Origin: Stenomitos frigidus ULC029
GTDB lineage: Bacteria; Cyanobacteriota; Cyanobacteriia; Leptolyngbyales; Leptolyngbyaceae
Direction: 5' to 3'
NCBI GenBank assembly: GCA_042919575.1
Contig: CP170648.1
Coordinates: 2,619,515-2,683,514, forward strand
DNA length: 64,000 bases
A program made the position numbers and the translations under genes. A model generated the notes under the pieces. The model saw nothing but the letters and a program-made list of their open reading frames with translations, ran no database searches and had not been told where the DNA came from. The first letter of the stretch is position 1. The number at the start of each line of letters is the position of its first letter. Positions 38,108-56,858 of the stretch are shown here, one piece after another.

Positions 38108-38247
38108 AAGAACGTAGGGGCGGATTTGCCAAACCCGCTCCTACTATGGCTTTATCTACGACCTCAGCCGATCGGCTACTTGACGCGCCCTGATCCCTCT
38201 GTTAATTTCAGAGCAGTATTGATTTAAATTCTCGGCGACACAGGCAA

Positions 38248-38304
38248 ATGAGCAGCAGCGTCTTTTACTTTTATGTTTGGTATCCATCGGTTCACCTGGA
38301 GTGA
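38248..38304 (+). CDS. candidate attenuator leader peptide 1: MSSSVFYFYVWYPSVHLE
   Basis: 18 codons. 6 of 7 consecutive codons are Phe/Tyr/Trp. The stop codon lies in the loop of a 13-bp hairpin whose 5' arm (38288-38300) is made of the leader's last codons. Confidence 0.6.
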   Translation: MSSSVFYFYVWYPSVHLE

Positions 38305-38333
38305 CTACCGTTCGAGCTGAACGTGTCCAGGTG

Positions 38334-38367
38334 AACCGCAGAGTCAACTCTGCGGTTTTTTCGTTTT
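38334..38367 (+). terminator. intrinsic terminator T1 (aaccgcagag-tcaa-ctctgcggtt + ttttcgtttt)
   Basis: 10-bp stem, 4-nt loop, U-tract. The 5' arm overlaps by 5 nt the 3' arm of the upstream 13-bp hairpin (38326-38338). Confidence 0.7.
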
Positions 38368-38398
38368 AAGGTGTTGTTAGAAAGAGACAGAAAGAGCA

Positions 38399-38461
38399 AT
38401 GGCAACGTTAATGAGTTGGTTTTACGGCTTTTACTTTTGGACCAGGCACTGTTCCGGGTAA
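38399..38461 (+). CDS. candidate attenuator leader peptide 2: MATLMSWFYGFYFWTRHCSG
   Basis: 20 codons. 7 of 8 consecutive codons are Trp/Phe/Tyr. The last codons plus stop (gttccggg, 38451-38458) can pair with cccggaac (38488-38495) inside the terminator's 5' arm. Confidence 0.65.
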   Translation: MATLMSWFYGFYFWTRHCSG

Positions 38462-38486
38462 AGTCTGTTGCGCCTTCGTTCGTACA

Positions 38487-38520
38487 GCCCGGAACCCAAC
38501 AGGTTTCGGGCTTTTTGTTT
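38487..38520 (+). terminator. intrinsic terminator T2 (gcccggaacc-caaca-ggtttcgggc + tttttgttt), about 35 nt upstream of the DAHP synthase start
   Basis: 10-bp stem (one G-U), 5-nt loop, U-tract. Mutually exclusive with the 8-bp antiterminator 38451-38458/38488-38495. Confidence 0.75.
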
Positions 38521-38554
38521 GCAATCACATCATCAAAATTTAGGAGTAATGCTC

Positions 38555-39418
38555 ATGTTGGATGCCCGGTTAGTCATGAAGTCCCATCCCAACCATCGCA
38601 CCGTTGTCAGCCTTTCTGAACAGGTAGCGATCGGTGGCAGCAATATCATCATTATCGGTGGTCCTTGTACGGTAGAGAGTGCCGAGCAAATGGAGCAAGT
38701 TGCCAGTCAGCTTTCAGTGGCTCCCATCCATGCTCTGCGCGGAGGGGTATACAAACCACGCACCTCCCCGTATGCGTTTCAGGGGATGGGCGTGGACGGG
38801 CTGCGAATTCTGGCAGAGGCACGATCGCGCTACGACATGCCTGTGGTGACAGAGGTGATGTCGATCGCCCAGATTGCTCCTGTTGCTGCCTATGCCGATA
38901 TGCTCCAGATCGGTAGCCGCAATATGCAAAACTTCGAGTTGTTAAAAGCGTTGGGGCAAGCAGGCAAGCCCGTTTTGCTCAAGCGAGGGCTCTCCGCCAC
39001 CATTGAAGAATTCGTGATGGCAGCAGAATACATCATGGCGCATGGTAATCCCAACGTGGTGCTGTGCGAACGCGGCATTCGCAGCTTCGACACTTACACC
39101 CGCAATGTGCTGGATCTAGGCGCAGTGGTTGCACTCCGTCAGTTAACCCATTTACCCGTCATCGTAGACCCTAGCCATGCAGCGGGTAAACGCGAACTTG
39201 TGGCGGATTTAGCACGCGCGGCTGTTGCCTGTGGAGCCGATGGACTGATTATAGAATGTCATCCCGAACCTGAGCAGTCTGTGTCAGATGCACGACAGGC
39301 GCTTTCGTTAAAGTCAATGGTGACTCTGGTGCATAGCCTAGAGCCGATCGCGCGGGCAGTCGGGCGCACCTTGAGCAAAGCCAGCATTGCAGACTCAAAG
39401 CAATTGGTTACGGCTTAA
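38555..39418 (+). CDS. aroG: 3-deoxy-7-phosphoheptulonate (DAHP) synthase, type I-beta, no allosteric domain
   Basis: IIIGGPCTVES...LRGGVYKPRTSPYAFQGMG matches the KDO8PS-like I-beta DAHPS barrel. AGGAG lies 8 nt upstream of the ATG at 38555. The catalytic barrel begins within about 25 aa of the start. Confidence 0.8.
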   Translation: MLDARLVMKSHPNHRTVVSLSEQVAIGGSNIIIIGGPCTVESAEQMEQVASQLSVAPIHALRGGVYKPRTSPYAFQGMGVDGLRILAEARSRYDMPVVTEVMSIAQIAPVAAYADMLQIGSRNMQNFELLKALGQAGKPVLLKRGLSATIEEFVMAAEYIMAHGNPNVVLCERGIRSFDTYTRNVLDLGAVVALRQLTHLPVIVDPSHAAGKRELVADLARAAVACGADGLIIECHPEPEQSVSDARQALSLKSMVTLVHSLEPIARAVGRTLSKASIADSKQLVTA

Positions 39419-39617
39419 TTGGGAGTGCGGCGATCGTGTCTTCAGCAAACAGAATCATTCGTTTTTAGAGCGTTTGTTTGACGACTTCAGGCGCGATCGC
39501 AACCTTCTTCACCACTGACACCGCTGCTTGCTACCAGCTGCCTTGACCTTCGCCTATAGGGGCTAAGAGCCAAAAAGGTGTAGGGTAAGAACAAAACTTT
39601 ATCGCTTTTATCCTCCT

Positions 39618-39989
39618 ATGTATTCTATTCCCGAACCACCCTACGTACTATTGCTGGTTGGGCTCTTTTTTAGCCTGACCTCTGGCGCTGCCTTCGAGTC
39701 AATTTTGAAAAAAGCTGTTCAAGATTGGTCTAAAAATCGTTCAACCCGTACGTTGGCAACCCTGCAAGGCTTTCAACTCTTTTTACCCTTTCTGGGCATT
39801 GCTCTGGGCATTTGTTTGTTCTTGTCGTCTGGGATGGAAGTTTTTGGTTTCACTACTCAACTGTCTTATGCGATCGCACTACCGCTTACCGTTCTTATTG
39901 GCTGGCTCATCTGGTCACAACTGGGCAAAATTCTTTTGCAGCTAGAGCAAGGCGGCTCTCAAGCATTAGACCTTGATTCCTGGGGCTAA
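39618..39989 (+). CDS. hypothetical integral membrane protein (123 aa)
   Basis: Three or four hydrophobic helices. No motif recognised. Confidence 0.4.
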   Translation: MYSIPEPPYVLLLVGLFFSLTSGAAFESILKKAVQDWSKNRSTRTLATLQGFQLFLPFLGIALGICLFLSSGMEVFGFTTQLSYAIALPLTVLIGWLIWSQLGKILLQLEQGGSQALDLDSWG

Positions 39990-40097
39990 CGTTTCAGCCC
40001 CAACAGCATTAAAAAAAGCCTCCTGACTGACGGGTTCAGGAGGCTTTATTTATTTTTAATGCCGCGGTAAAACTAATGAACGAAAAACAGTCGAACC

Positions 40098-40706
40098 TTA
40101 TGCTTGTCGTGAGTAGTACTCAACCACCAGCAGTTCGTTAATCTGAAGCGCGACCCACTCGCGATCAATAACGCTGTTGACCTTGCCAACGAGCTTGTTT
40201 TTGTCAAACTCTAGATGGCTTGGCAGGTTAGCAAGACCAGGATACTGCAAGTTCGTTTCAACGATTTTGCGTGAACGGTCTTGATCTTTCACGCCGATGA
40301 CTTCGCCGGGGCGACATTGGTAGCTAGGAATATCGACCACGCGACCGTTGACGGTAACGTGCCCATGATTGACCAGTTGACGCGCACCAGGAATGGTCGG
40401 AGCCATACCCAGGCGAAAAATGGTGTTATCCAGACGCATTTCCAACAGTTGCAATAAGGTTTGCCCTGTGGAACCGGCTGCTCGACGAGCTTTTCGCACG
40501 TACCGCAACAGCTGGCGTTCGGTGATCCCGTAGTTAAAGCGGAGCTTTTGTTTTTCTTCCAGCCGAACTGCATACTCAGAACGCTTTTTGCGGTTTTGAC
40601 CATGCTGACCAGGTGGATATGCACGTCTGGGCGCTTTGCGAGTCAACCCAGGCAAATCTCCTAGCCGACGCACAATCCGCAGCCGTGGACCTCGATATCG
40701 CGACAT
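40098..40706 (-). CDS. rpsD: 30S ribosomal protein S4
   Basis: [16 protein letters not shown]...LESRLDN... is canonical S4. Confidence 0.95.
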
Positions 40707-40916
40707 CTAACTTCCTCTAAATTCGTCTAAAAGTTTTAGCCAGAACATCTAGTATATGCTCTGACGATTCCAACTTCAAAAAAAGTTGCGTTTTTTTTGA
40801 GTATTTCCTGACGATTATAGCGTGAACCATCTTCTCTTCAGGACGCGGCTTGCCTGGGAAGAATGACGATCGCGCTCACTTCCCGTTTTTGTAGACTCAG
40901 CAGACCTTAAGCACGC

Positions 40917-41657
40917 TTAGAGAACTGCTTCTAGCGGGATATCAAGGACTGGAAACTGCGCCCAGCTTGCAGCATCAAAGTGCCACCATTCGCTTTGTAA
41001 GGGTGTAAACCCATGCTGAGTCATGACATCTTTTAGCCGCTGGCGGTTTTGCTTTGCCTGTGGACTGGCACCGTCATAGTTTGTGGCTGCTTGCTCAGTA
41101 AAATCGTCGAAACCAGTAGGCATGGTCAGTTCTTTCCCCCTACGATCGACCAGCGTGACATCGACCGCAGAGCCACGATTATGTCGGGAACCCCTAGCAG
41201 GATTGGCAACATAACGATCGTCTGGGAAAAGTTTCCACATTTGCTTTTGCACCGAAAGCGGGCGGTAGCAGTCGTATACTTTCAGCCCCAGTCCCTCTTT
41301 TTCCAGGGCTTTCTGTACTGCCCCTAGCTGCTCGGCGACGCTCGCCCGTAGCAGGCAGCGCGACTGCTTGTAGAGTGGTCGCCGCATAAAGTTATTGGTC
41401 GTTGCATACCGCAGATCCAGACGAATCGCAGGATTAACCGAACGCAGATCCACTAATAAAGCGCTGTTGGCAAGCTTGTTTAGTTGAGAGGGAAGGGCTG
41501 TGGTTGGCGACGCTGTGAGCCGAGGCGATGCTGTGGCGATGCTTGGCGGAACAGTCGAGTCAGCAGCCTTTATGGAGTAATGGCAAGCAACAAAAAGTGC
41601 TAGAAGCGCGATCGCAGCAAACTGAAGCCAGGATGGCATTTTGTGTAAGGCTTTCAT
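40917..41657 (-). CDS. D-Ala-D-Ala dipeptidase (peptidase M15D, VanX-like) with signal peptide
   Basis: YDCYRP...SRHNRGSAVDVTL...SEWWHFD are the zinc-binding and catalytic motifs of VanX/DdpX. Confidence 0.8.
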   Translation of the reverse strand: MKALHKMPSWLQFAAIALLALFVACHYSIKAADSTVPPSIATASPRLTASPTTALPSQLNKLANSALLVDLRSVNPAIRLDLRYATTNNFMRRPLYKQSRCLLRASVAEQLGAVQKALEKEGLGLKVYDCYRPLSVQKQMWKLFPDDRYVANPARGSRHNRGSAVDVTLVDRRGKELTMPTGFDDFTEQAATNYDGASPQAKQNRQRLKDVMTQHGFTPLQSEWWHFDAASWAQFPVLDIPLEAVL

Positions 41658-41765
41658 GTCGCCAGTTTTATACAGATAAGGGATAATGCCAGTGTGCCCA
41701 GGACGTTCGATACGCCAACAAAATTTTCGCAGCCCTTCTAGAATAGAAGTCTTAGACCTTTCAGA

Positions 41766-43289
41766 ATGGAAGTTCTGAGCAACAAACCTGCTCCACGATC
41801 GCAGCCGAGGCTCACTATGCTTGCAACCCCGCTTCTTCGCTCTAGAGAATTGCCAACCTTGGAATACAGCTCCACGCGCGATCGCTTCGATGCGACCTGG
41901 GAATCGCCCCTATCAACATTGCTAGGACTGGGACGGGCAGCAGGCGCAGATTTCGTCGAGTTCTTTCTAGAGCGGGTTAACTACATTAGCTGCCTCGCTG
42001 AAGACGATGCCATCACCAGCATTTCGCCACGCCTTGCCACTGGGGCTGGCATCCGCGTTTTTCGGGGTCAAACCGATTGCTACGTCAGCACCAACGACCT
42101 CACCTTCTCTGGCTTAAAAGCTGCCCTCGAAAAAGGGCTTTCCATTCTAGGCTTACAGCTGCCTTCGCCCGGAGCATATATTCCTGAAATTAATCTGGAA
42201 CCGCTGCGCGACTACGCCGTACTCCGTGGCAAAGAATCCTGGCTCTCAGCCTCTAGCTCTATGCGCGAAATGGGCGAAGTGCTGCTGGATGCCAACGCTC
42301 GTTTAAAAGAAAAAGCCACGCATGTCCAATCTCGTCGCGCTGTCTACTTCCGCGATTGGCAAGAAGTGTTGGTTGCCTCCAGCGATGGCACCTTTGCGAG
42401 AGACATTCGCCTGACGCAATCCGTTGGCTACAACCTGCTCTGTGCGGATGGTGCTAACCGTGCCTCTATTGGCGAACGTGTGGGCAACACCAGCGATCCT
42501 AACTTCCTTCGCACCTGGGACTACAACGCGACTGCCGAAAGCGTTGCTGAATCGGCTGGCAGAATGCTCTATGCCGACTATGTGGAATCGGGCACCTACC
42601 CCATCATCATGGCAAACAAGTTTGGTGGCGTGATCTTCCATGAGGCTTGCGGTCACTTGCTAGAAACCACCCAGATCGAAAAACGCACCACGCCGTTTAT
42701 GGATAAAAAAGGCGAAAAGATTGCCCACGAAAACCTGACAGCATGGGATGAAGGGCTTTCGACGGATGCGTTTGGCACGATCGACATGGACGACGAAGGA
42801 ATGCCCGCTCAACGCACACTCTTGATTGAAAAAGGCGTACTGAAAAACTTTATCGCCGATCGTGCGGGTTCCATTCGCACCGGACACCCTCGCACAGGTA
42901 GCGGTCGCCGCCAAAGCTATACTTACGCCGCCGCCTCGCGGATGCGGAACACCTACATTGCTCCTGGTGATTTCACCAACGAAGACCTGTTTGCCTCCAT
43001 TGAAAAAGGCATCTACTGCAAGAAAATGGGCGGCGGCAGCGTTGGTGCTACTGGACAATTCAACTTCTCAGTGGACGAAGCCTACCTGATTGAAAACGGC
43101 AAAATCACCAAACCCCTCAAAGGCGCAACCCTGATCGGCGAAGCCAAGGAAATCATGAACAAAATTTCCATGTGCTCCAACGATCTCGACCTCGCAGCAG
43201 GCTTCTGCGGCTCCGTCAGCGGCAGCATCTACGTCACCGTTGGACAACCCCACATCAAAGTCGATTCCATCACCGTTGGCGGACGGTAG
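41766..43289 (+). CDS. tldD: metalloprotease TldD
   Basis: HEACGH zinc motif and TldD/PmbA fold blocks. Paired with pmbA at 45809. Confidence 0.85.
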
Positions 43290-43517
43290 ACAAGGAGCGG
43301 AGTCTAAAGGGCAAGGAATAAAAAACGAGAAGCTGGAGTTTCCAACGCGAAGTCTCCAGCTTGATCGTATTTACCTGTACTGAGTTGTCTATTGGGCTGT
43401 GTTCTAGGAGATTATTCGTTAATACTCAAGTCTAAATGAGGTAAACCTAGTTTAGTGTCGGGTGCAGTCGGAGAAGGTTAGACGAGAATCTTAAAATAAG
43501 GCGTTTCGGCAGCTCCC

Positions 43518-44909
43518 ATGACATACTTACTGTTCTTCCTTTCTATTGGACTTGCTACTGCTTTGGTAGTGGTGATTAAACAACTGCAACAACGTCAGAA
43601 TGAGTATGCTTTAGCGCAGCAAAGGTTAAAAGAAGCCGATAGGAAGATACAAGATATAGACCGAAAATATGGTGGACTTCTTTCACAAGAGGAGTCAGCT
43701 AGGAAATTAGACAACCAGATTATTGTTCTCACAGATCGGCTAAAGCAGCTTAATAGACAAGCTAATACTGAAGAGCAGGAACTTGACCATAAAATCTCGA
43801 CATTAAAAATAAAGCTTCAAGAACTTGAAGAGCAAGAGTTTATTGAATCATTTGGATTTTACAAATCCAAGTATGACTTTCAGGAGTCTGGCGAGTATAA
43901 GCAATGTCTTGACAAAATCCGGTTTCAGCAAAAGCAGATGATTAAAGACCGAACTGCTGCCGTTTGCCGAACTCAATTTACTCTCAGCGATAGCCGAAAA
44001 GAAGGCAAAAAGATGACTGATAGTTATCTCCGATTAATTCTCCGAGCCTTTAATGGAGAATGTGATGCCGCTGTAGTAAAAGTTAAATATAGTAATGCTC
44101 AGACAATGGAGAATCGAATTAGAAAAGCATTCGCAGAGCTTAATAAGCTTTCTGAGATTATTCATTCTGAAATCACCTCTGATTATCTAGATCTTAAGCT
44201 TAAAGAGTTATGGCTAACTCATGAGTATCAAGAGAAAAAATACCAAGAACAAGAAGAGCAACGCACAATTCGTGAGCAGATGCGCGAAGAAGAACGAGCC
44301 TTACGCGAATTGGAGAAAGTAACACAAGAAGCTGAACGCGAGGAACGACGATACCAAGAAGCTTTAGAAAAAGCTCAAAGAGAGATTGAGAATGTTACGG
44401 GTAAGGCTCAACAAAAACTTCAAGCACAGATCGAGGAATTACAGAAGCGGGTGGCTGAAGCTGAAGCCAGTAAAGAGCGAGCTATTTCTCAAGCCCAACT
44501 AACCAAATCAGGTCATGTATATGTAATCTCAAATATTGGTTCTTTTGGTAACGATGTATACAAAATTGGTATGACACGTCGTCTTGAGCCGATGGATAGG
44601 GTTAAAGAGCTAGGTGATGCGTCTGTCCCTTTCCCGTTTGACGTTCACGCTATGATCTTTTGCGAAAATGCGCCAGAATTAGAGTCACGTTTGCATAAGC
44701 GTTTTAACTTTAAAAGAGTAAACAAAGCCAATGGCAAGAAGGAATTTTTTCGAGTTTCGTTAGAAGAAGTAGTTGAGACGGTTCGAGAAATTGATGAAGA
44801 ACTTCAGATCTGCAAATCAGAAATCAAGTTCACAAAAGCTGCTGAAGCTGCTGACTTCCGCAACACTCTAGCCCAAGAACGCGAGGTGCAGCGGGCTAAG
44901 GTGACTTGA
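43518..44909 (+). CDS. TM + coiled-coil DUF4041-like N-region fused to a T5orf172 (GIY-YIG-like / MUG113) C-terminal domain
   Basis: HVYVISNIGSFGNDVYKIGMTRRLEPMDRVKELGDASVPFPFDVHAMIF...RLHKRFNFKRVNKANGKKEFFRVSLEEV fits the T5orf172 pattern. AT-rich gene. Confidence 0.65.
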   Translation: MTYLLFFLSIGLATALVVVIKQLQQRQNEYALAQQRLKEADRKIQDIDRKYGGLLSQEESARKLDNQIIVLTDRLKQLNRQANTEEQELDHKISTLKIKLQELEEQEFIESFGFYKSKYDFQESGEYKQCLDKIRFQQKQMIKDRTAAVCRTQFTLSDSRKEGKKMTDSYLRLILRAFNGECDAAVVKVKYSNAQTMENRIRKAFAELNKLSEIIHSEITSDYLDLKLKELWLTHEYQEKKYQEQEEQRTIREQMREEERALRELEKVTQEAEREERRYQEALEKAQREIENVTGKAQQKLQAQIEELQKRVAEAEASKERAISQAQLTKSGHVYVISNIGSFGNDVYKIGMTRRLEPMDRVKELGDASVPFPFDVHAMIFCENAPELESRLHKRFNFKRVNKANGKKEFFRVSLEEVVETVREIDEELQICKSEIKFTKAAEAADFRNTLAQEREVQRAKVT

Positions 44910-44989
44910 GTGAAGTAACAGGAAATTAGCGTGATTACATTTATTGTTTGCCTCAGAAATTGAGTGGTCGCCTAAAAAAGGAGAACCTT

Positions 44990-45301
44990 ATGCCTGACAG
45001 AATCAGTATTGTGATTGAAAAAAATGATCAAGGCTATGCTGCTTACAGTCCGGAGCTTGCCAATTCTCAGGTGCAAGGCAATTCATTTGAAGACGTAACG
45101 GCGCAAATTCAGGTAAGAGCTAAAGATTACCTGGAGCAACTGCCCACTGACGAATTGCCCCAAACGAATGACAGACCTATCTGGGAGATCATTGACGATC
45201 TGGTAAAAGACATTCCTGAAGAGGAGTTACAGAAGCTACCGACCGATGGAGCAGAGCAACACGATCACTATATTTACGGCACACCCAAGCGGAAGCAATA
45301 A
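44990..45301 (+). CDS. HicB-like (UPF0150) antitoxin with a cyanobacterial antitoxin-type C-terminal tail
   Basis: SIVIEKNDQGYAAYSPEL...GNSFEDVTAQI is HicB/UPF0150-like. The tail ...EEELQKLPTDGAEQHDHYIYGTPKRKQ is common in cyanobacterial PIN-partner antitoxins. AAGGAG RBS before the ATG at 44990. Confidence 0.6.
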   Translation: MPDRISIVIEKNDQGYAAYSPELANSQVQGNSFEDVTAQIQVRAKDYLEQLPTDELPQTNDRPIWEIIDDLVKDIPEEELQKLPTDGAEQHDHYIYGTPKRKQ

Positions 45302-45717
45302 AGCTTGTTTTTGCCGATACATTCTACTGGGTTGCTGTTTTCAATAAACGAGGCGAGTGGCACGACAGAGTTCAGCAATATGCTGAAACACTCAAGCAAG
45401 TTCATCTTTTAACTACAGACGAGGTGCTTACTGAAGTGCTAACCTTCTTTGCAGCTTATGGCGCTCGAAGGCGGCACAAGACAGTTGCAAGGGTTCAGGA
45501 GATTCTTAGCAACACCAGGATTCAAGTCATCCAGCAAAGTCGAGAGTCTTTTTTGGCAGGGCTTGATCTGTATGCAAAGCGTCTAGATAAAGAATATAGC
45601 TTGACGGATTGTATTTCGATGCAGGTTATGCGGCAGCTAGGGATTACAGACGTACTTACGCGAGATCGTCACTTTACTCAGGAAGGCTTCACGATTCTCT
45701 TCAATGAAAATGCCTGA
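45301..45717 (+). CDS. PIN-domain toxin (VapC-like) lacking a canonical start codon (possible pseudogene or non-canonical initiation)
   Basis: In-frame translation from 45301 gives KLVFADTFYWVAVFNKRGEWH... (PIN N-terminus with the first Asp) through ...LTDCISMQVMRQLGITDVLTRDRHF. No ATG/GTG/TTG lies between the in-frame stop at 45217 and the first Met at 45424. Confidence 0.5.
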   Translation, partial: KLVFADTFYWVAVFNKRGEWHDRVQQYAETLKQVHLLTTDEVLTEVLTFFAAYGARRRHKTVARVQEILSNTRIQVIQQSRESFLAGLDLYAKRLDKEYSLTDCISMQVMRQLGITDVLTRDRHFTQEGFTILFNENA

Positions 45718-45808
45718 TGATCAGCATAGGCAGCCCTACCGAACCAAGCGCGATCGCTCATACTAGAGAAGAAAGCATCACGTTTTGAGAGAAGTTTGAG
45801 GAATCGCC

Positions 45809-47149
45809 GTGCCAACCATCAACGAACTAGCGACCCAGGCAAAAGAAGCTGCCGATCGCCTGGGAATCCACAAATTCGACATTTACGGCTCCACCGTGGA
45901 TGAGAGCAGCGCCAAGGTTGATCAGGGCAAGCCCGATCAGGTGAAAGCCTCAAACCGTTCCAGCGTCACTGTGCGGGTGTGGAACGATGACCAAACGATG
46001 GGCATTACCTCGACCACAGATGTTGATCCGGTTGGGTTAGCACTTGCACTGAAGACGGCGTATGAAGCCAGCTTCTTTGGCGTAAAGGAAAACGTCCCCG
46101 ATTTTAGTCCGGCAGCAACGGCTCCTCTTGCCCGTGAGTTTGCTGAAAAAGCGCCCCAGGCTCCCATTTCAGACCTGTTGGAAAAGCTGATTACCGCCGA
46201 GAAGGCATTAACTGAGGCACATCCGGCGATCGCCTCCGTCCCCTACAATGGTCTTGCTCAGCGCGACATTGATCACTTCTACCTCAACAGCGATGGGGCT
46301 TTGCGAACCGAAGCCTACTCCACCACATCGCTCTATCTCTACACCAAAACGGAAGAAGACGGCAAAAAGCCTCGTAGTGCAGGCGCATTTCGCATCAGTC
46401 GTGGCTTAGAAACCCTGGATGTTGATGGTTGCCTTAAGGAAACGGTTGAAAAAACCATTAGCCACCTTGATTACAAAAAGATTCCTACAGGCAAATATCG
46501 CGTTGTCTTTTCACCAGAGGCGTTTCTGAGTCTCTTAGGTGCGTTCTCGAATTTGTTCAACGCTCAAAGCATTCTGGACAATCAGAGCCTCTCAAAACCA
46601 GAGTCACTGGGCACTCAAATTGCTTCGCCTTTGCTGTCCGTTGCCGATGATGCACTGCATCCAGATAATGTGGCGATCGCTACCTTTGATGGTGAAGGCA
46701 CACCCACCCAACGTCTTCCTCTCATTAGCGATGGCATATTGGTCAACTTCCTTCATAGTGCTGGCACCGCTAAACGGTTCAACACCGACCCTACCGGGCA
46801 CGCCAATATGGGCGCAAAAGTGACCGTTAGCCCCCATTTCTACCACGTCTTCACCAGTAAACCTGCCGAGCAGCAGTACAGTCTAGAGACGGCTGAAAAT
46901 GTCGTTCTTATTGATGATCTGCACGCTCTCCATGCCGGAGTCAAAGCGCTTCAGGGTTCCTTCTCGCTACCGTTTGATGGCTGGCTGGTCAATCAGGGTG
47001 AGCGTACCAGCATCGAATCGGCTACCGTCGCTGGTGACTTTTTGGAGCTACTGAACGCGATCGTCTACGTGGAGCCAGAAGCCCACCTGACTCCGGGCGG
47101 TGTTTGCCCCTATGTTTGGGTCGGCGAACTGTCGATTACAGGCGAGTAG
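45809..47149 (+). CDS. pmbA: PmbA/TldE metalloprotease partner (GTG start)
   Basis: TldD/PmbA family blocks. GTG start at 45809. Canonical tldD-pmbA pairing, interrupted here by the island. Confidence 0.8.
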   Translation: MPTINELATQAKEAADRLGIHKFDIYGSTVDESSAKVDQGKPDQVKASNRSSVTVRVWNDDQTMGITSTTDVDPVGLALALKTAYEASFFGVKENVPDFSPAATAPLAREFAEKAPQAPISDLLEKLITAEKALTEAHPAIASVPYNGLAQRDIDHFYLNSDGALRTEAYSTTSLYLYTKTEEDGKKPRSAGAFRISRGLETLDVDGCLKETVEKTISHLDYKKIPTGKYRVVFSPEAFLSLLGAFSNLFNAQSILDNQSLSKPESLGTQIASPLLSVADDALHPDNVAIATFDGEGTPTQRLPLISDGILVNFLHSAGTAKRFNTDPTGHANMGAKVTVSPHFYHVFTSKPAEQQYSLETAENVVLIDDLHALHAGVKALQGSFSLPFDGWLVNQGERTSIESATVAGDFLELLNAIVYVEPEAHLTPGGVCPYVWVGELSITGE

Positions 47150-47211
47150 CTGCGTTGTGAGCGATCGTGGCTAGTTAATGGATGAATGGCTGCTAATCGC
47201 TCATCAACCGC

Positions 47212-48207
47212 TTAGTCATGCGTCGAGCCGTCGGGCATAGTTGCACCCTGGAGGTTTGCACCACTGAGATTCGCGCTGCTGAGTTCAGCTTTTGCCAGGT
47301 TAGCGTTGGTCAGGTTGGCATCGCGGAGATCAGCACGACCGAGGTAGGCTTCAATGAGGCTTGCATCGGTCAAATTGACACTTTGGAGTGTAGTGCGGCT
47401 CATACTTGCTCGATTGAGCCGCGATCGACACATAATTGCCTGAGCCAGGTTGGCTTTGCTCAGGTTGGCATCGGTCAGGTTAGCATCCGTCAGATTAACG
47501 TTTTTGAGTGTTGCTTCGGTCAAGTTAGCGCGCTCTAGCTTGGCACTAACCATGTTTGCCTGACTCAAATCAGCTTCGGTCAGATTAGCATCAGTCAAAA
47601 AGCAACTTTGCAGCGTGGCTCCGATTAAGTTTGCTTCGGTAAGATTGGCTTCTCGCAGACTGGTTTCAGTGAGGTTAGCACGACGAAGGTCGGCTTTGGT
47701 CAAATCAGCTCCGCTAAAGTTTGCACCGCGCAAGTCAGCATTGCGGAGGTCAACACCGCGCAAATTGGCACCTTCATAGCAGCGTTTTTCATAGCGCAGG
47801 TTAGCTCCACGCAGGCAGGCTCCGCGCAGGTTGGCGCTGCCGAGATTGACGTTTCGCAAATCAGCGCTGATCAGGTTGGCATCGAGCAGGATTGCCAGGG
47901 TGATATCGGCACCGCGTAGATCAGCGCCATAGAGGATGGCACCATGTAAGTCGGCATCGCGCAGTTTGGCGCTCATCAGATCAGCTTGACTCAGATTGGC
48001 TCCACTAAGACGGGTTCCAGCCAGGTTTGCCTTGCTCAGGTTGGCGCGGTTGAGGTATGCCAGAACCAGATTTGCGCCACGTAGATCGGTGCCTGTGAGG
48101 TCTGCGCCAATGAGATCGGCTCCGCCCAGATCTGCGCCACAAAGGTTTTCGCCCCGAAAGTCGGTTTCACCTGCCTGGTAGCGTTGCAGTAGCTCGATCG
48201 CGTCCAT
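47212..48207 (-). CDS. pentapeptide-repeat protein
   Basis: MDAIELLQRYQAGETDF, then ADL/ANLxx repeats through to the C-terminus. Confidence 0.8.
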   Translation of the reverse strand: MDAIELLQRYQAGETDFRGENLCGADLGGADLIGADLTGTDLRGANLVLAYLNRANLSKANLAGTRLSGANLSQADLMSAKLRDADLHGAILYGADLRGADITLAILLDANLISADLRNVNLGSANLRGACLRGANLRYEKRCYEGANLRGVDLRNADLRGANFSGADLTKADLRRANLTETSLREANLTEANLIGATLQSCFLTDANLTEADLSQANMVSAKLERANLTEATLKNVNLTDANLTDANLSKANLAQAIMCRSRLNRASMSRTTLQSVNLTDASLIEAYLGRADLRDANLTNANLAKAELSSANLSGANLQGATMPDGSTHD

Positions 48208-48366
48208 GATTGGTTTAGCCTCTGGCGGTTGTTTAGTTGTCGTTCGTTGCTGGCGGCCAACAGTTTTCAACCTGCCAACACCTTTGTTCAGTATGCCCCC
48301 AGGCAGGATGGCTAAGGACGTTTGAGCCTAGTTGATGAGGCATAGTAGCCCAAACCATTAACGGTG

Positions 48367-50682
48367 CTAATCCAGAAAGGATGTTGACGGATGATCGGAG
48401 TCTGTTTTGGCTTCGACGATCGACGACTCTGGAGCCAACGGAACATCGATCGCACGGTTAGTAGACAGAGACCCTTGCATGATTGCCGTTGGTTCAGCGG
48501 CTGGCGGTATCAGTTGACAGGTGTAATCGTCTTCAACGGCGATGCTAGCAAATTCCAGGGTTGTTTCCTCGAAATCGTCGAGTTTGAGCTGAGTAGGCTC
48601 GTCAGACGGAAGCGATTGCCGTTCAGCCTTGCTGTATAGATAAAAAGGGCGTAAACATTTAATGATGGCTTCGGCAGTCTGCACCGTTTCTGCTGGCTCT
48701 GGCGATCGTCGTGCCGCTGTAAAAAGGCACGCTTCTAGATCTGTATAGGTTTTGCAAACGCCCAAAAGACGGCGGAGTAAGCTATCGAGGTCATGCTGTT
48801 TTAGATTACTCCACTCCTGGTTCGTAAAGCCGAAGTCTTCGTACAGAGCAGAGAACAGCAAGATTTTTGCCTGCAACGGGTTGGCATATTTCATAATGCC
48901 TAGCCGGAAGTCGAACAGGTTAAGTGGTGCGTCTGGCGAAGGCTGAGGTGGTTCGGGTTTGATGGGCGATCGCTGCTCCTCTGACACTATGGCGATCGCT
49001 AATGGTTCCTCTGGATGTGTAGCGGCAGCGAAGGCGATCAGTGGCTCTGCCTCCTGATAGTCGGGGTACAGTCTACCCAGATGGGTGACGATCGTTTGGG
49101 CGATCGTGCGATACTCCTCTTGCTTATTCAGCGTTTTGACTACTGCCTCAAACGCCGCTTCTAGCTGGGCACTTGTACGTGTGAGCTGATGGACTTCCTG
49201 AATTAACTGTTCCAGATTCAGACGTTCTAATTTGGCAGCATCGCTTTCCCATTGACGATGGCAAACGTAGAACAGCAGTTTTTTAATCCGTAGCAGGTCT
49301 GGCTCTGACTGCAAACGTTGAGCAAGGGCAACATAGAGTGCTGAAGCCTCCGCTAATAATGGTTCGGCTAATAGTAGTGGCTCGGCGATCGGTGCGTCTG
49401 CTACAGGCGCGAGTGGCATAGCTTGCTGGAGGGGAGCGATCGGCGGTGCCAGTACAGGTGCCGGTGCCGATGCTTGCTCAGACACGCCATAAAGCTGTTG
49501 CAGCTTATTGATGAGCGCATTAGCAACGAGAGCGTATTCTGCTTGTTTACTCAGGGTTTGGACAAAGACATTAATTGCGATCGTGAGGCGCTCTAACGTT
49601 GGCATAGACTGGTGCAGTTCCGCAATTAAATCTTGCAGACGCAGACCATCCAGCTTATTTTGATCCATCTCCCAGCGCCGTCTACAAACATAGAAAGCAA
49701 GCTTTTTGATGCGTGTGCCATTTCCAGTTGCTTCTAGTTCAGCGGCAAGCTGGTCGTAGAGAGCATTAACTGCATGGGGCGATGGCTGCGGCTCTGCTGC
49801 AAGGTTATAAGAGGTTGGATCGTCGTCGTGGTTGTGCTCTGCTGGGTAAAGCCGACCGACTTCCTTCACCAGAATATTAGCAATCAGGGAATACTCGGCT
49901 GCTTTGCTGAGTGTACGTACGGCTGCATCTAGAAAAAACCGCAGGCGCTCTGGGGTTGGGGCAAGCAGCATTACCTCTTGGATTTGGTCAGAAAGGCTAA
50001 TTAAATTCAGCTTATTGTGATCGCTTTCCCAGCTATTTTTGCACGCGTAGAACAGTAGTTTTTTCACCCGCAGCAGGTTACGGCTTTGCTCTAGATTACG
50101 GATGGCAACTGAGTAGGGATTTAGAACCTGCGACTCTGGTGACATCACAATACGGTAGACAGGCACAACCTCGCGGATGTTTTTCAGTTCGCGCGGGCCG
50201 AGGTATTCGCTGTCAATGTGCAAGCTGGCTTTAATGACATCAAAAACTGTCTGCGAGATGCAGATACCGCCCGGTTCTGCCTCTGTTTGCAACCGTGCCG
50301 CAATGTTAACGCCATTGCCCATTACGTCTGTTTCGGTGATAAACATATCCGCTAAGTGAATGCCAATGCGATGTTCCAGGGCATCTTCAGGCGGCAGTTC
50401 GATCGATCGATCAGTGATGCTTCTTTGAATCTCCATCGCACACTCAACAGCTTTGACCGCGCTAATGAAGCACATGAGCAAGCCATCACCAGTCGATTTC
50501 AAGACTCGCCCCTCATACCGCCTACAGATCTGCTTCATGAACTTAAGATCGCGGCGAATGAGATCCAGTGTATGGTCTTCGTCTACTGACATTCTGGCGC
50601 TGAAGCCAACACAGTCTGTAAAGACAACGGTTGCAAGTGTGCGCTGCCCCCTCATTTCTGATGTCAGTAAATCGTTGTCCAT
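48367..50682 (-). CDS. class III adenylate/guanylate cyclase with four tandem roughly 110-aa repeat modules
   Basis: N-terminal CHD (ATVVFTDCVGFSARM...KSTGDGLLMCF...GNGVNIAARLQ). Four repeats of the type KKL(A/L)FY(V/A)C...W(E/S)(M/S)D.NKL..L.L..LI.E...L..T.ERL follow. Confidence 0.75.
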   Translation of the reverse strand: MDNDLLTSEMRGQRTLATVVFTDCVGFSARMSVDEDHTLDLIRRDLKFMKQICRRYEGRVLKSTGDGLLMCFISAVKAVECAMEIQRSITDRSIELPPEDALEHRIGIHLADMFITETDVMGNGVNIAARLQTEAEPGGICISQTVFDVIKASLHIDSEYLGPRELKNIREVVPVYRIVMSPESQVLNPYSVAIRNLEQSRNLLRVKKLLFYACKNSWESDHNKLNLISLSDQIQEVMLLAPTPERLRFFLDAAVRTLSKAAEYSLIANILVKEVGRLYPAEHNHDDDPTSYNLAAEPQPSPHAVNALYDQLAAELEATGNGTRIKKLAFYVCRRRWEMDQNKLDGLRLQDLIAELHQSMPTLERLTIAINVFVQTLSKQAEYALVANALINKLQQLYGVSEQASAPAPVLAPPIAPLQQAMPLAPVADAPIAEPLLLAEPLLAEASALYVALAQRLQSEPDLLRIKKLLFYVCHRQWESDAAKLERLNLEQLIQEVHQLTRTSAQLEAAFEAVVKTLNKQEEYRTIAQTIVTHLGRLYPDYQEAEPLIAFAAATHPEEPLAIAIVSEEQRSPIKPEPPQPSPDAPLNLFDFRLGIMKYANPLQAKILLFSALYEDFGFTNQEWSNLKQHDLDSLLRRLLGVCKTYTDLEACLFTAARRSPEPAETVQTAEAIIKCLRPFYLYSKAERQSLPSDEPTQLKLDDFEETTLEFASIAVEDDYTCQLIPPAAEPTAIMQGSLSTNRAIDVPLAPESSIVEAKTDSDHPSTSFLD

Positions 50683-55955: not shown

Positions 55956-55976
55956 GGCATACCCTACAGGTCAGCT

Positions 55977-56858
55977 CTACCGAATACCCCAGCGTCGCCG
56001 CCAACTGGATGTTGACTCCAAGGTACTTTGCTGTTGCTCCTGGTAATGCTGCTCCAGAATCGTTGTGGCATCTCCTTGCAGTGTGGGATCGCGATACGGT
56101 ATGGCTGCCCGTGTTTGCAAATGCTCCTGCTCTAGTTGTGTCAGGGGATGCAGCGTTTGAGCATCAAAGCTGCCGATCGTGCCCTGTGACCACTCGTGTG
56201 GCAAGTGGTTGGCAGCAGGCGGTAGCGTTCCCAGACAAAATCCCGCCGATTGCATTGCCGATCGCACTGCCGCCGAGCGTGAATACGTTGCGAGTTTACC
56301 GTCTGGTGCTAAACAGCGTGCCACCCGTGCGAAAAACTCGATCGTCCATAGCTGCGGGCACCGACGTGGCGAGAACGGGTCAAAGAAAATAGCGTCTGCT
56401 TGCCACCCTGCGGCACAGAGCATCTGAATCGTTTGACGGGCATCACCAAGCAAGAGTGTTGCCGTCAGGTGAGGCAAAAGGCAAGCGTGCGCCAGCGCCA
56501 TTTGTTGCAAAACTGCTTGTACCGTTAACGACCAGCCATCCAGCAAGGGCGGGACGATCGCCGCCTGTGGCACAGTGGCATCCAACTCCAGTGCATAGAG
56601 TTCTACCTGACACTCTGGGTTCACTGCCCAGATGGTTTCCAGCGCTGCCGCCGTGTTGTAGCCCAGTCCATAGCAAATGTCTAACACCCGCAGATGACGA
56701 TGGTGCGCTTTCGTCCTTAGCTCAGTTGCTACTACGAACTTGGAAAATGCCTCAGCACGAGCGCCTTGAAGGCTATGGAACGACTCGCCAAAAGCTTCCG
56801 AAAAGAAAGTGAACGAACCATCAGCGGTTGGCTGCGGCACCCAGGGTTGTAAAGGCAT
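55977..56858 (-). CDS. MnmC/MnmD-like tRNA U34 methylaminomethyl-modification methyltransferase domain protein (DUF752)
   Basis: PTADGSFTFFSEAFGESFHS...LRVLDICYGLGYN...IFFDPFSP matches the MnmC N-domain/MnmD pattern. Confidence 0.55.
   Translation of the reverse strand: MPLQPWVPQPTADGSFTFFSEAFGESFHSLQGARAEAFSKFVVATELRTKAHHRHLRVLDICYGLGYNTAAALETIWAVNPECQVELYALELDATVPQAAIVPPLLDGWSLTVQAVLQQMALAHACLLPHLTATLLLGDARQTIQMLCAAGWQADAIFFDPFSPRRCPQLWTIEFFARVARCLAPDGKLATYSRSAAVRSAMQSAGFCLGTLPPAANHLPHEWSQGTIGSFDAQTLHPLTQLEQEHLQTRAAIPYRDPTLQGDATTILEQHYQEQQQSTLESTSSWRRRWGIR

What the first reader, a model, noticed from the sequence alone, without database searches (positions are those of the whole stretch)
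43290..45760. AT-rich, HIP1-free island inserted between tldD and pmbA, with a T5orf172 protein and a HicB-PIN module
tldD (41766-43289) and pmbA (45809-47149) are normally adjacent partners. Here about 2.5 kb of visibly AT-rich DNA separates them, roughly 40% GC by eye against about 56% around it. The stretch contains no GCGATCGC (HIP1) octamer, whereas flanking genes carry one every few hundred nt. The first GCGATCGC past the island is at 45747-45754. This points to recent horizontal acquisition. The cargo is (i) a 463-aa protein with one TM helix, a long coiled-coil (DUF4041-like) and a C-terminal T5orf172/GIY-YIG-like domain, an architecture that recurs in defence islands but has no established function; (ii) a HicB-like antitoxin; (iii) a PIN toxin. 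A hairpin with an adjacent A/T tract (43322-43350) sits at the left edge.
Basis: partly seen in the sequence, partly recalled or inferred. Interest (0 to 1): 0.78.

Follow-up and report, generated by a model that had tools for sequence, protein, structure and literature searches.

The report
SNIPE defence gene and toxin–antitoxin island
A 2.5-kb AT-rich insert between two protease genes of the cyanobacterium Stenomitos frigidus carries a homologue of SNIPE, a known membrane-anchored nuclease that cuts phage DNA as it is injected, beside a toxin–antitoxin pair. It is a new example of known systems in a locally variable hotspot, not a new kind of system.

Summary
The island is real. Bases 43290-45808 are 42.3% GC against 51.3% for the window, the lowest-GC 2.5-kb stretch in 64 kb. 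They hold no HIP1 octamer and none of the window's 266 CGATCG cores. The 463-aa protein has an established function. It is a full-length member of PD-lambda-1, now called SNIPE (PADLOC E 5e-165), with an N-terminal membrane helix, DUF4041 and a GIY-YIG/T5orf172 nuclease. The catalytic Glu of E. coli SNIPE (E414) is kept as E389. The next two genes are a VapBC-type pair: an antitoxin with a weakly HicB-like N-domain and a PIN/VapC toxin. The toxin's start codon is ATA here and ATG in six homologues. "Recent one-step acquisition" is not supported. The pair is shared by all close relatives but one. The slot between the tldD stop and the antitoxin's ribosome-binding site holds different cargo in different relatives. 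A metagenomic relative has SNIPE at the same junctions, and its synonymous divergence (0.68) equals that of tldD (0.64). Cyanobacterial SNIPE genes are AT-rich and HIP1-poor in every host examined. Verdict: a new member of known kinds in a lineage-specific variable hotspot; modest interest.

The parts
41766..43289 (+). tldD, the left flank and left anchor of the variable slot. Relatives start at the ATG at 41817 (490 aa).
   Evidence: Pfam PmbA_TldD_3rd 1.3e-60. DNA homology with relatives L001 and L002 stops at 43288/43289, the tldD stop codon, and with L003 at 43322.
43290..43517 (+). Non-coding leader of the SNIPE cassette. It is homologous only to contig L081. The last ~70 nt before the ATG are highly conserved.
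   Evidence: Alignment with L081 gives 84% column identity starting directly after the tldD stop. No homology to L001, L002, L003 or L085. No Rfam match.
43330..43362 (.). Hairpin: 9-bp stem AAGCTGGAG/CTCCAGCTT with a 15-nt loop. It has an A-run upstream on the + strand, which is a T-run downstream on the - strand, so it is shaped as a minus-strand intrinsic terminator.
   Evidence: strand folding gives -24.9 kcal/mol, z -3.4. A minus-strand terminator-like site was flagged at 43346-43332. The left arm is not conserved in L081.
43518..44909 (+). SNIPE / PD-lambda-1 homologue, 463 aa. Layout: TM helix at residues 2-20; long helix to ~110; DUF4041 globular region at ~125-227; helical linker 221-330; GIY-YIG/T5orf172 domain at 332-425.
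   Evidence: PADLOC PD-Lambda-1 5.1e-165, covering 22-459 of the protein and 37-477 of 496 in the profile. Pfam DUF4041 3.4e-22, MUG113 1e-21, T5orf172 9.8e-19. 47% identity to the E. coli reference, with the hydrophobic N-terminus scoring KD19 2.42. AlphaFold2 secondary structure agrees with the layout. 100% identical to a protein of MAG Stenomitos frigidus ULC029.
44682..44684 (+). Codon for Glu389. It aligns with catalytic E414 of E. coli SNIPE, where the E414A change abolishes defence.
   Evidence: Pairwise alignment. The residue is invariant in 37 cyanobacterial homologues. The role of E414 is taken from bioRxiv 10.1101/2025.11.03.685801.
44910..44989 (+). Spacer between SNIPE and the antitoxin. 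Its last 15-18 nt (AAAAAGGAGAACCTT) are the right-hand breakpoint of the variable slot and the antitoxin's Shine-Dalgarno sequence.
   Evidence: Homology with L002 resumes at 44975 and with L003 at 44989. With L085, 18 nt are 100% identical. Four-way alignment.
44990..45301 (+). Antitoxin, 103 aa. It has a weakly HicB/UPF0150-like N-domain (residues 1-~54) and a C-terminal tail with the invariant motif LPxDGAEQHDHYIYGxPK.
   Evidence: No Pfam, NCBIfam or PADLOC hit. A profile of 33 homologues hits PDB 2yzt (TTHA1756) at E 9.6e-4 over positions 1-54. Homologues are named 'RNase H-like HicB family' or 'HicB family antitoxin' by their sources, and the tail is shared with antitoxins that carry MazE/AbrB, CopG/RHH or ParD N-domains.
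45298..45717 (+). PIN-domain VapC-family toxin, 139 codons, overlapping the antitoxin stop by 4 nt. Its start codon is ATA (45298-45300).
   Evidence: Pfam PIN 6.9e-07, 30.3 bits against a cut-off of 23.6. PDB VapC20 (5wzf) 6.7e-6. Acidic residues D7, D41/E42, D104 and D123 are retained, and six homologues start with ATG. L085 reads GCAATGAAGC where the window reads GCAATAAAGC. NCBI annotates it from this codon as a VapC toxin, XHX81246.1.
45718..45808 (+). Spacer upstream of pmbA. It travels with the toxin-antitoxin pair and contains the first HIP1 site (45750-45757).
   Evidence: 91-92.5% identical in L002, L003 and L086, but not alignable to the empty-site spacer of L001. HIP1 position.
45809..47149 (+). 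pmbA (tldE), the right flank.
   Evidence: Pfam PmbA_TldD_3rd 5.5e-50. Homology with the empty-site relative L001 resumes at 45810.

Best explanation
The tldD-pmbA spacer of Stenomitos frigidus ULC029 is occupied by two independent, known kinds of module.

1. A single-gene SNIPE (PD-lambda-1) defence system. By homology with the E. coli protein, it is anchored in the cytoplasmic membrane by its N-terminal helix. It holds the DUF4041 domain (DNA binding, contact with the phage tape-measure protein) and the GIY-YIG nuclease on a long helical stalk in the cytoplasm. It cuts phage DNA as it enters the cell, and membrane tethering spares the chromosome.

2. A VapBC-type toxin-antitoxin pair. The PIN toxin is neutralised by the conserved C-terminal tail of an antitoxin with a HicB-like N-domain. 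Here toxin translation is probably weakened by an ATG-to-ATA start-codon change.

The locus is a lineage-specific variable hotspot. The toxin-antitoxin pair is the resident right-hand element. The slot between the tldD stop codon and the antitoxin's ribosome-binding site is exchanged as a cassette, most likely by homologous recombination through the conserved flanks. The SNIPE cassette is old at this site, not newly arrived. Its AT-rich, HIP1-free composition is a property of the cyanobacterial SNIPE gene pool.

Shown: family membership, architecture, conserved catalytic Glu, locus variability, shared junctions and comparable synonymous divergence. Inferred: anti-cyanophage activity, the mechanism in this host, the recombination route and weakened toxin translation.
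For: Family membership:
- Near full-length PD-Lambda-1 HMM match, E 5e-165.
- DUF4041 plus T5orf172/MUG113 domains.
- The E. coli protein L092:2599-4101 carries all nine residues named in the SNIPE paper at the stated positions. It aligns at 47% identity with E414 opposite E389. The TM segment is at residues 2-20.
- E389 and the GIY/YIG-block residues are invariant in 37 homologues.
- The AlphaFold2 model gives helix 2-110, a globular region at 125-220 with pLDDT about 90, helices 221-330 and a beta/alpha domain at 334-440.
- Mechanism and mutant phenotypes of SNIPE come (bioRxiv 10.1101/2025.11.03.685801). The original defence phenotype is in PMC9519451.

Single-gene system: homologues stand alone in unrelated contexts, including defence islands, a plasmid and gaps between housekeeping genes. 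They also occur in temperate phages, one of which annotates the gene as PD-lambda-1.

Toxin-antitoxin pair.

Hotspot:
- Empty site in L001.
- Slot cargo of 421 aa (L002), 282 aa (L003, L086-L091) and 272 aa (L085).
- A 4.6-kb version with a DUF4365 REase-like gene, two toxin-antitoxin pairs and an HTH gene in L098-L100.

Age of the insert:
- L081 is collinear from tldD through SNIPE into the antitoxin gene at 85.7% identity, with the same junctions.
- dS is 0.64 for tldD, 0.68 for SNIPE and 0.59 for the antitoxin gene.
- The SNIPE carriers are not sisters on the tldD tree.

Composition of the gene pool: SNIPE genes in seven loci have GC 0.38-0.44, GC3 0.31-0.40 and about zero HIP1, with flanks of 0.41-0.51 GC.

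Recombination: tldD identity to relatives is mosaic, e.g. L003 goes 97% to 85% to 97%. PIN dS is 0.048 against 0.30 for its neighbours in the window-L085 comparison.
Against: - No experiment exists for any cyanobacterial SNIPE.
- E. coli SNIPE works partly through the ManYZ mannose permease. I did not look for an equivalent partner here.
- The N-terminal 'adapter' region is the least conserved part, and here it aligns poorly with the E. coli protein.
- pLDDT of the nuclease domain is only 50-85. A whole-model Foldseek search of the PDB returned only coiled-coil noise.
- The age argument rests on a single 3.4-kb metagenome contig (L081). Mosaicism in tldD means dS comparisons are approximate. 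The 3' half of tldD is closer to L081 than SNIPE is.
- Co-inheritance from a common ancestor requires at least three replacements and one loss in relatives.
- The recombination route is inferred only from breakpoint positions and the absence of integrase and att sites.
- The ATA start could be a consensus error in a metagenome-assembled genome.
Confidence: 0.78

Rival explanations
1. The whole 2.5 kb (463-aa gene, antitoxin and PIN) is one island acquired recently by horizontal transfer into an intact tldD-pmbA pair.
For: - Lowest-GC stretch of the window, with low GC3 and no HIP1 or CGATCG.
- Empty site in L001 at 92-93% flank identity.
- Homology with L001 breaks exactly at the tldD stop and the pmbA start.
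Against: - The toxin-antitoxin half is present at the same place in every other close relative, with different genes to its left.
- The SNIPE half is shared with L081 at dS 0.68, the same as tldD.
- The same composition is found in SNIPE genes of other cyanobacteria.
- L001 nests inside lineages that carry the pair on the tldD tree, which suggests secondary loss.
- No att repeats, integrase or tRNA.
Confidence: 0.08
2. SNIPE and the antitoxin-PIN pair form one functionally coupled system. For example, the PIN toxin could be an abortive-infection back-up released when SNIPE is overwhelmed, or the pair could regulate SNIPE.
For: - All three genes are on the same strand, with short spacers.
- Only about 18 nt upstream of the antitoxin gene are conserved, so the pair may depend on transcription from the cargo gene.
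- SNIPE and the antitoxin gene are adjacent in both the window and L081.
Against: - The same pair sits beside unrelated cargo in L002, L003, L085 and L098.
- SNIPE homologues elsewhere lack this pair.
- E. coli SNIPE works alone.
- A 51%-identical pair sits next to a caspase-NACHT system in another cyanobacterium.
- The toxin's start codon is degraded here.
Confidence: 0.07
3. The 463-aa protein is a selfish GIY-YIG homing-type endonuclease. Its nuclease promotes its own spread into gaps between housekeeping genes, rather than serving as a host defence.
For: - GIY-YIG/T5orf172 domains occur in homing endonucleases (my own knowledge).
- The gene appears as a solitary insert between unrelated housekeeping genes in L082 and L096, and on plasmids and prophages.
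- No other mobility gene accompanies it.
Against: - A conserved N-terminal membrane anchor and a DUF4041 stalk are not features of homing endonucleases.
- The E. coli orthologue is shown to be membrane-bound and to cleave injected phage DNA, while the version without the TM helix is toxic to the host.
- Insertion sites differ, with no shared target sequence.
Confidence: 0.04
4. The composition anomaly is not foreign origin. It is a by-product of a Lys/Glu/Gln-rich coiled-coil protein and short AT-rich spacers.
For: The protein is rich in K, E and Q, and second-position GC is low at 0.31.
Against: - Third-position GC is 0.34 against 0.56-0.59 in the flanks.
- First-position GC equals that of the flanks.
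- None of 13 GATC sites is extended to CGATCG, whereas 54% are window-wide.
- An empty site and alternative cargo exist in relatives.
Confidence: 0.02

Closest known systems
SNIPE / PD-lambda-1 of E. coli (Vassallo et al. 2022, PMC9519451; Saxton et al. 2025, bioRxiv 10.1101/2025.11.03.685801; reference copy here L092:2599-4101, UIV48661.1)
   Same: - Same order of parts: N-terminal single TM helix, helical stalk, DUF4041, helical linker, GIY-YIG/T5orf172 nuclease.
- Catalytic Glu conserved (E414/E389).
- 55% identity over residues 113-452.
- Single-gene system carried on mobile or variable DNA.
   Different: - Cyanobacterial host.
- 463 aa against 500 aa, with a shorter and poorly alignable N-terminal 'adapter' region of ~110 residues.
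- Not in a prophage here: it sits in a chromosomal slot between two housekeeping genes.
- Target phages and any membrane partner (ManYZ in E. coli) are unknown.
- No experimental data.
VapBC type II toxin-antitoxin systems (e.g. M. tuberculosis VapC20, PDB 5wzf)
   Same: - PIN toxin with the four acidic residues.
- A small upstream antitoxin whose stop overlaps the toxin start by 4 nt.
- An antitoxin C-terminal tail conserved together with the toxin.
   Different: - The antitoxin N-domain is HicB/UPF0150-like rather than AbrB, RHH, PhD or Xre.
- No recognisable DNA-binding domain.
- The toxin starts with ATA.
- Only ~18 nt upstream of the antitoxin gene are conserved between relatives, so I did not identify a promoter of its own.
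HicAB toxin-antitoxin systems
   Same: The antitoxin's first ~54 residues weakly resemble the HicB/UPF0150 fold (PDB 2yzt, E 1e-3). Several sources name the homologues as HicB family.
   Different: The partner toxin is a PIN domain, not HicA. There is no HicB Pfam or NCBIfam hit. The C-terminal half is a PIN-binding tail rather than the DNA-binding domain of HicB.
Defence hotspots between conserved core genes, as described for E. coli and Pseudomonas pangenomes (my own knowledge, not checked in the paper library here)
   Same: A fixed chromosomal position between conserved genes holds different defence or accessory cargo, or nothing, in related genomes. Cargo here includes SNIPE and a DUF4365 REase-like gene.
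   Different: - Very small (0.25-4.6 kb).
- Seen only in one Stenomitos/Tildeniella-like clade among 80 cyanobacterial loci.
- No integrase.
- A resident toxin-antitoxin pair forms the constant right edge.

Membership tests
SNIPE / PD-lambda-1 | Near full-length match to the family profile | tested here: met
   PADLOC PDLC03977 E 5.1e-165, covering protein residues 22-459 and profile positions 37-477 of 496. A second model gives 1.1e-160.
SNIPE / PD-lambda-1 | Central DUF4041 domain (PF13250, shown as 'SNIPE' in the precomputed Pfam labels) | tested here: met
   Pfam 3.4e-22, profile positions 1-56 of 56, residues 172-227. Label seen. The region has pLDDT about 90 in the model.
SNIPE / PD-lambda-1 | C-terminal GIY-YIG (T5orf172/MUG113) nuclease with the catalytic Glu (E414 in E. 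coli) | tested here: met
   T5orf172 9.8e-19 and MUG113 1e-21. E414 aligns with E389. E389 is invariant in 37 homologues.
SNIPE / PD-lambda-1 | N-terminal membrane-targeting element (single TM helix in E. coli and in 59% of homologues) | tested here: met
   Residues 2-20 (TYLLFFLSIGLATALVVVI) have a mean Kyte-Doolittle score of 2.42 over 19 residues, and no other segment exceeds 0.81. They are helical in the model. This is sequence prediction only; localisation was not measured.
SNIPE / PD-lambda-1 | Acts as a single gene without an obligate partner | tested here: met
   Homologues have unrelated neighbours in L082, L083, L093, L094 and L096. E. coli SNIPE was shown to work alone.
SNIPE / PD-lambda-1 | Protects against phage by cleaving DNA during injection | not testable with these tools
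   This needs phage challenge and labelled-DNA injection assays. It is known only for the E. coli protein.
VapBC type II toxin-antitoxin | PIN-domain toxin with conserved acidic active-site residues | tested here: met
   Pfam PIN 30.3 bits against a cut-off of 23.6. VapC20 6.7e-6. D7, D41/E42, D104 and D123 are present. The NCBIfam VapC hit is only 20.4 bits against a cut-off of 80.
VapBC type II toxin-antitoxin | Small antitoxin gene immediately upstream and translationally coupled | tested here: met
   The 103-aa ORF ends at 45301 and the toxin frame starts at 45298 (ATAA overlap; ATGA in L002, L003, L085 and L098).
VapBC type II toxin-antitoxin | Toxin has a canonical start codon, i.e. an intact expressible toxin | tested here: not met
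   ATA at 45298-45300. There is no ATG, GTG or TTG before codon 43. Six homologues have ATG. NCBI nevertheless annotates the gene from the ATA.
HicAB toxin-antitoxin | HicA toxin partner | tested here: not met
   The downstream gene is a PIN/VapC toxin. No HicA-like ORF lies in 43290-45808.
HicAB toxin-antitoxin | HicB-family antitoxin domain | tested here: inconclusive
   No Pfam, NCBIfam or PADLOC hit. The profile hits PDB 2yzt at E 9.6e-4 over residues 1-54. Source names for homologues say HicB family.
Integrase-mediated genomic island | Integrase or transposase gene, flanking att direct repeats, tRNA target | tested here: not met
   The island has only the three ORFs. No edge-to-edge direct repeat of 11 nt or more. 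No tRNA in 38000-50000.

The most novel reading that the evidence does not exclude
The tldD-pmbA spacer of the Stenomitos/Tildeniella-like clade may be a miniature cassette-exchange hotspot. A resident toxin-antitoxin pair, for which I found no conserved promoter, forms its constant right edge. The tldD stop codon and the antitoxin's ribosome-binding site would serve as recombination anchors. On this reading the uncharacterised genes found in the same slot in relatives are new anti-phage genes. These are a 282-aa membrane protein, a 272-aa TPR-like protein, and a DUF4365 REase-like gene with a 286-aa partner. The unchanged AT-rich, HIP1-free composition of SNIPE after dS of about 0.65 would then be maintained by selection or by continual allele exchange, not by recency.
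Probability: 0.2. Interest if true: 0.5.

Novelty: new member of a known kind. Interest (0 to 1): 0.3.

Why it matters
The "unknown" 463-aa protein is a clear cyanobacterial member of SNIPE, a defence system whose mechanism was worked out only in E. coli. A well-populated cyanobacterial clade exists, with 120 listed homologues at 57-100% identity. This extends the expected reach of injection-stage DNA cleavage to cyanobacteria and their phages, and gives a concrete gene to test.

The locus is also a caution. Low GC and absence of HIP1 mark membership of a mobile gene pool, not recency of arrival.

The small variable slot next to a resident toxin-antitoxin pair offers a few uncharacterised candidate genes by position. 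Beyond that the finding is ordinary.

Tried and rejected
- A Foldseek search of the PDB with the whole AlphaFold2 model gave only coiled-coil noise (best E 0.12) and was dropped.
- An exact look-up of the 463-aa protein in the contig index found nothing. The source was identified instead through the protein search.
- Searches for att-like direct repeats, inverted repeats at the edges, tRNAs and Rfam families were all negative.
- Promoter and terminator scans were no better than shuffles.
- The left-edge hairpin is real but not conserved in L081, so I do not treat it as a functional boundary element.
- I considered a functional link between the TldD/PmbA protease and the antitoxin. From my own knowledge, TldD/TldE have been implicated in CcdA degradation in E. 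coli. I rejected this as unsupported. A 51%-identical antitoxin-PIN pair sits in an unrelated caspase-NACHT neighbourhood, and among 80 tldD loci only this clade has the pair at this site.
- PADLOC and Pfam scans of the alternative cargo proteins (421, 282 and 272 aa) gave nothing significant.
- L004 and L005, which lack pmbA downstream, turned out to be rearranged. Their tldD is followed by a secretin or by rhomboid and other housekeeping genes, not by a large island.

Full report
**1. The observation**

tldD (41766-43289) and pmbA (45809-47149) are confirmed by all three PmbA_TldD Pfam domains.

Composition:
- The 2519 bases between them are 42.3% GC. The window is 51.3% and the 10-kb flanks are 50.8% and 52.6%.
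- It is the lowest-GC stretch of that length in the window.
GC3 is 0.34 for the 463-aa gene, 0.46 for the antitoxin gene and 0.43 for PIN, against 0.59 for tldD and 0.56 for pmbA. First-position GC is the same as in the flanks.

HIP1:
- The octamer occurs 71 times, about 1.1 per kb (1.7 expected by chance). None lies in the island.
- The gap runs from 41885 to 45750 and includes most of tldD. The first site after it is at 45750-45757.
- On its own the absence has Poisson P of about 0.065, and a longer gap exists at 54967-60480.
- The HIP1 core CGATCG is more telling. The window has 266 copies. None of the island's 13 GATC sites is extended to CGATCG. From the window-wide rate I calculate P of about 4e-5.

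The hairpin is at 43330-43362, not 43322-43350, with z -3.4.

**2. The 463-aa protein**

- It matches the PADLOC PD-Lambda-1 profiles almost end to end (E 5e-165).
- It carries DUF4041, MUG113 and T5orf172.
- It is 100% identical to a protein annotated as 'DUF4041 domain-containing protein' in MAG Stenomitos frigidus ULC029, which identifies the window's source.
- PD-lambda-1 was recovered in a functional selection for anti-phage genes in E. coli (PMC9519451).
- It has since been characterised as SNIPE. A single N-terminal TM helix anchors it in the inner membrane. DUF4041 binds DNA and probably the phage tape-measure protein. The GIY-YIG nuclease cleaves phage DNA during injection. E414A abolishes defence, and deleting the TM helix makes the protein toxic to the host (bioRxiv 10.1101/2025.11.03.685801).
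- To get a reference sequence I fetched an E. coli homologue from a lambdoid region of plasmid CP061260.1. It has all nine residues named in the paper at the stated positions, so it is the studied protein or nearly so.
- The window protein aligns with it at 47% identity overall and 55% over residues 113-452. E414 lies opposite E389, and a strongly hydrophobic segment sits at residues 2-20.
- E389 and the GIY/YIG-block residues are invariant among 37 cyanobacterial homologues.
- The AlphaFold2 model has mean pLDDT 77.7. It shows one helix over residues 2-110, a confident globular region at 125-220, long helices over 221-330 and a beta/alpha domain at 334-440. This is the elongated architecture described for SNIPE.
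- The family is large, with 1483 clusters at 50% identity at E of 1e-30 or better. It occurs on plasmids and temperate phages, including one E. coli phage that annotates the gene as PD-lambda-1 and one Synechococcus phage.

**3. The other two genes**

Antitoxin:
- It starts at the ATG at 44990, six bases after AAGGAG, and is 103 aa like its homologues.
- It has no Pfam, NCBIfam or PADLOC hit.
- A profile of 33 homologues hits the UPF0150/HicB-like protein TTHA1756 (PDB 2yzt) at E 1e-3 over the first 54 positions.
- Its C-terminal tail carries the invariant motif LPxDGAEQHDHYIYGxPK. Antitoxins with MazE/AbrB, CopG/RHH or ParD N-domains share this tail.

Toxin:
- The downstream frame is a PIN domain (30.3 bits against a cut-off of 23.6). 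It is related to VapC20 and keeps all four acidic positions.
- The pair is therefore VapBC-type with a HicB-like antitoxin head. It is not HicAB.
- The toxin has no canonical start. The frame is open from before 45250, but the first ATG, GTG or TTG is at codon 43.
- The six homologues examined start with ATG inside an ATGA overlap. The window reads ATAA.
- The closest relative, L085, is 97% identical in PIN and differs at this junction only by the G at 45300.
- That single change keeps the antitoxin's stop (TGA to TAA) and removes the toxin's ATG. NCBI annotates the gene from the ATA.
- I infer reduced toxin translation. A consensus error in the MAG cannot be excluded.

**4. Comparative loci**

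- Of 80 cyanobacterial tldD loci, 63 have pmbA 43-655 bp downstream.
- Leptolyngbya sp. FACHB-321 (L001) has tldD at 92.9% and pmbA at 91.6% nt identity, with an empty 251-bp spacer.
- All other close relatives carry the antitoxin-PIN pair next to pmbA, with something different to its left:

| Locus | Cargo in the slot |
|---|---|
| L002 (Tildeniella nuda) | 421-aa gene on the minus strand, with native GC and HIP1 |
| L003 and L086-L091 | 282-aa membrane protein |
| L085 (tldD 94% identical) | 272-aa TPR-like protein |
| L098-L100 | 4.6 kb at 41.9% GC (contents listed below) |

- The 4.6-kb version in L098-L100 holds a DUF4365 gene (PADLOC Aga_REase, 4e-30), a 286-aa gene, a 281-aa gene, two antitoxin-PIN pairs and an HTH gene.
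- DNA homology to the window ends at the tldD stop (43288/43289; 43322 for L003). It resumes 0-18 nt before the antitoxin's ATG.
- The island is therefore composite. It has a variable slot (43290 to about 44974) and a resident toxin-antitoxin pair with its own conserved spacer in front of pmbA.

**5. Age of the SNIPE cassette**

- Metagenome contig L081 is collinear with the window from tldD through SNIPE into the antitoxin gene, at 85.7% over 3.4 kb.
- The leader is homologous from the base after the tldD stop, and the SNIPE-antitoxin spacer is homologous too. This points to one insertion event, or to transfer of the whole segment by flank homology.
- Synonymous divergence is 0.64 for tldD, 0.68 for SNIPE and 0.59 for the partial antitoxin gene. 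The cassette is as old as the split between these lineages.
- On a tldD tree the window groups with L085 and L001, not with L081. SNIPE was therefore either replaced or lost several times, or it moved by recombination.
- tldD identity profiles are mosaic. PIN has dS 0.048 against 0.30 for its neighbours between the window and L085. Both show that recombination is active at this locus.
- SNIPE genes in seven cyanobacterial loci all have GC 0.38-0.44, GC3 0.31-0.40 and essentially no HIP1, whatever the host composition. The two copies at this site both have GC3 of 0.338.
- The compositional signature therefore does not date the acquisition.

**6. Mobility and context**

- There is no integrase, att repeat, tRNA or Rfam element.
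- The neighbours are housekeeping genes: ribosomal protein S4, a D-Ala-D-Ala dipeptidase, a pentapeptide-repeat protein and an E2 acyltransferase.
- SNIPE homologues elsewhere sit in defence islands (with GmrSD and DUF4238; or with Cas3, Mrr, HNH, integrase and transposase), on a plasmid, or alone between housekeeping genes. This fits a self-sufficient single-gene cassette.
- The antitoxin-PIN family is not tied to tldD/pmbA.

**7. Verdict**

It is wrong on two points. The protein's function is established for the family, and the acquisition was neither recent nor a single step.

The island holds a new, untested cyanobacterial member of SNIPE beside a VapBC-type pair with a weakened toxin start, in a small lineage-specific variable hotspot.

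Novelty: new member of a known kind. Interest: about 0.3.

Noticed in passing
window 45298-45301: The PIN/VapC toxin starts with ATA inside an ATAA overlap. Six homologues have ATGA. A single G-to-A change at 45300 keeps the antitoxin's stop codon but removes the toxin's ATG. NCBI still annotates a 139-aa VapC from this codon (XHX81246.1).
   Followed up: yes
window 45298-45579 compared with L085:2527-2808: The 5' two-thirds of PIN has dS 0.048 between the window and L085, while the adjacent antitoxin gene and tldD both have dS of about 0.30. This suggests a recent recombination tract confined to the toxin gene.
   Followed up: partly
L098:3576-8158 (also L099, L100): In three metagenome contigs the tldD-pmbA gap is 4.6 kb at 41.9% GC. 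It holds a 127-aa DUF4365 protein (PADLOC Aga_REase N-domain, 4e-30) overlapping a 286-aa ORF, a 281-aa membrane protein, two tandem antitoxin-PIN pairs with different antitoxin heads, a 68-aa ORF and an Xre-type HTH gene.
   Followed up: partly
L003:4363-5211; L097:5001-5843: The 282-aa membrane/coiled-coil protein that occupies the slot in L003 and L086-L091 belongs to a small family of 24 clusters, whose named members are all cyanobacterial. In Leptolyngbya FACHB-321, the empty-site genome, a 57%-identical copy sits elsewhere among housekeeping genes.
   Followed up: partly
L085:881-1699: The closest relative (tldD 94% nt identity) has in the slot a 272-aa protein with a weak C-terminal TPR match and weak PADLOC 'cyclase' hits (E about 2e-3), plus a 53-aa minus-strand ORF. 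Function unknown.
   Followed up: partly
window 45150-45298 (antitoxin residues ~55-103): The antitoxin's C-terminal tail motif LPxDGAEQHDHYIYGxPK is invariant in 33 homologues. The same tail is fused to unrelated N-terminal domains (HicB-like, MazE/AbrB, CopG/RHH, ParD) in other proteins. It looks like a portable PIN-neutralising module.
   Followed up: partly
window 54967-60480: This is the longest HIP1-free gap in the window (5.5 kb), longer than the one at the island. It covers a Methyltransf_30 gene (55977-56858, minus strand) and a 797-aa DUF7925 protein (57825-60218). Local GC is only mildly low, about 0.48.
   Followed up: no
window 41817-43289 compared with L003, L081, L001: tldD identity to relatives is mosaic. 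Against L003 it runs 97% to 85% to 97% along the gene. Against L081 the third-position identity is 65% in the 5' half and 75% in the 3' half. This indicates homologous recombination among these lineages within the flank itself.
   Followed up: partly
window 43316-43362: The left-edge hairpin is preceded by AATAAAAAAC on the + strand. Read on the minus strand it is a stem followed by a T-run, which is the shape of an intrinsic terminator pointing towards tldD. No minus-strand gene is evident to its right.
   Followed up: partly
L004:11911-14565; L005:11513-16635: In Stenomitos rutilans and Leptolyngbya sp. BL-A-14, tldD is not followed by pmbA. It is followed by a PilQ-type secretin on the minus strand, or by rhomboid, epimerase and biotin-synthase-like genes. 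The tldD-pmbA pairing is therefore broken in some relatives.
   Followed up: partly
window 41766-41816: The 507-aa tldD ORF extends 17 codons upstream of the ATG that the called genes of relatives use (490 aa, starting MLATPLL). The real start is probably 41817.
   Followed up: no
L062:3-353: In an Aliterella metagenome contig a PIN gene (39% identical to the window's) lies immediately upstream of tldD. This may be coincidence, given how common PIN genes are in cyanobacteria.
   Followed up: no
phage record PP438427.1, 31101-32000 (hit H40): Synechococcus phage Ssp-JY37 encodes a homologue of SNIPE residues 156-452 (46% identity). Cyanophages therefore also carry this gene family.
   Followed up: no
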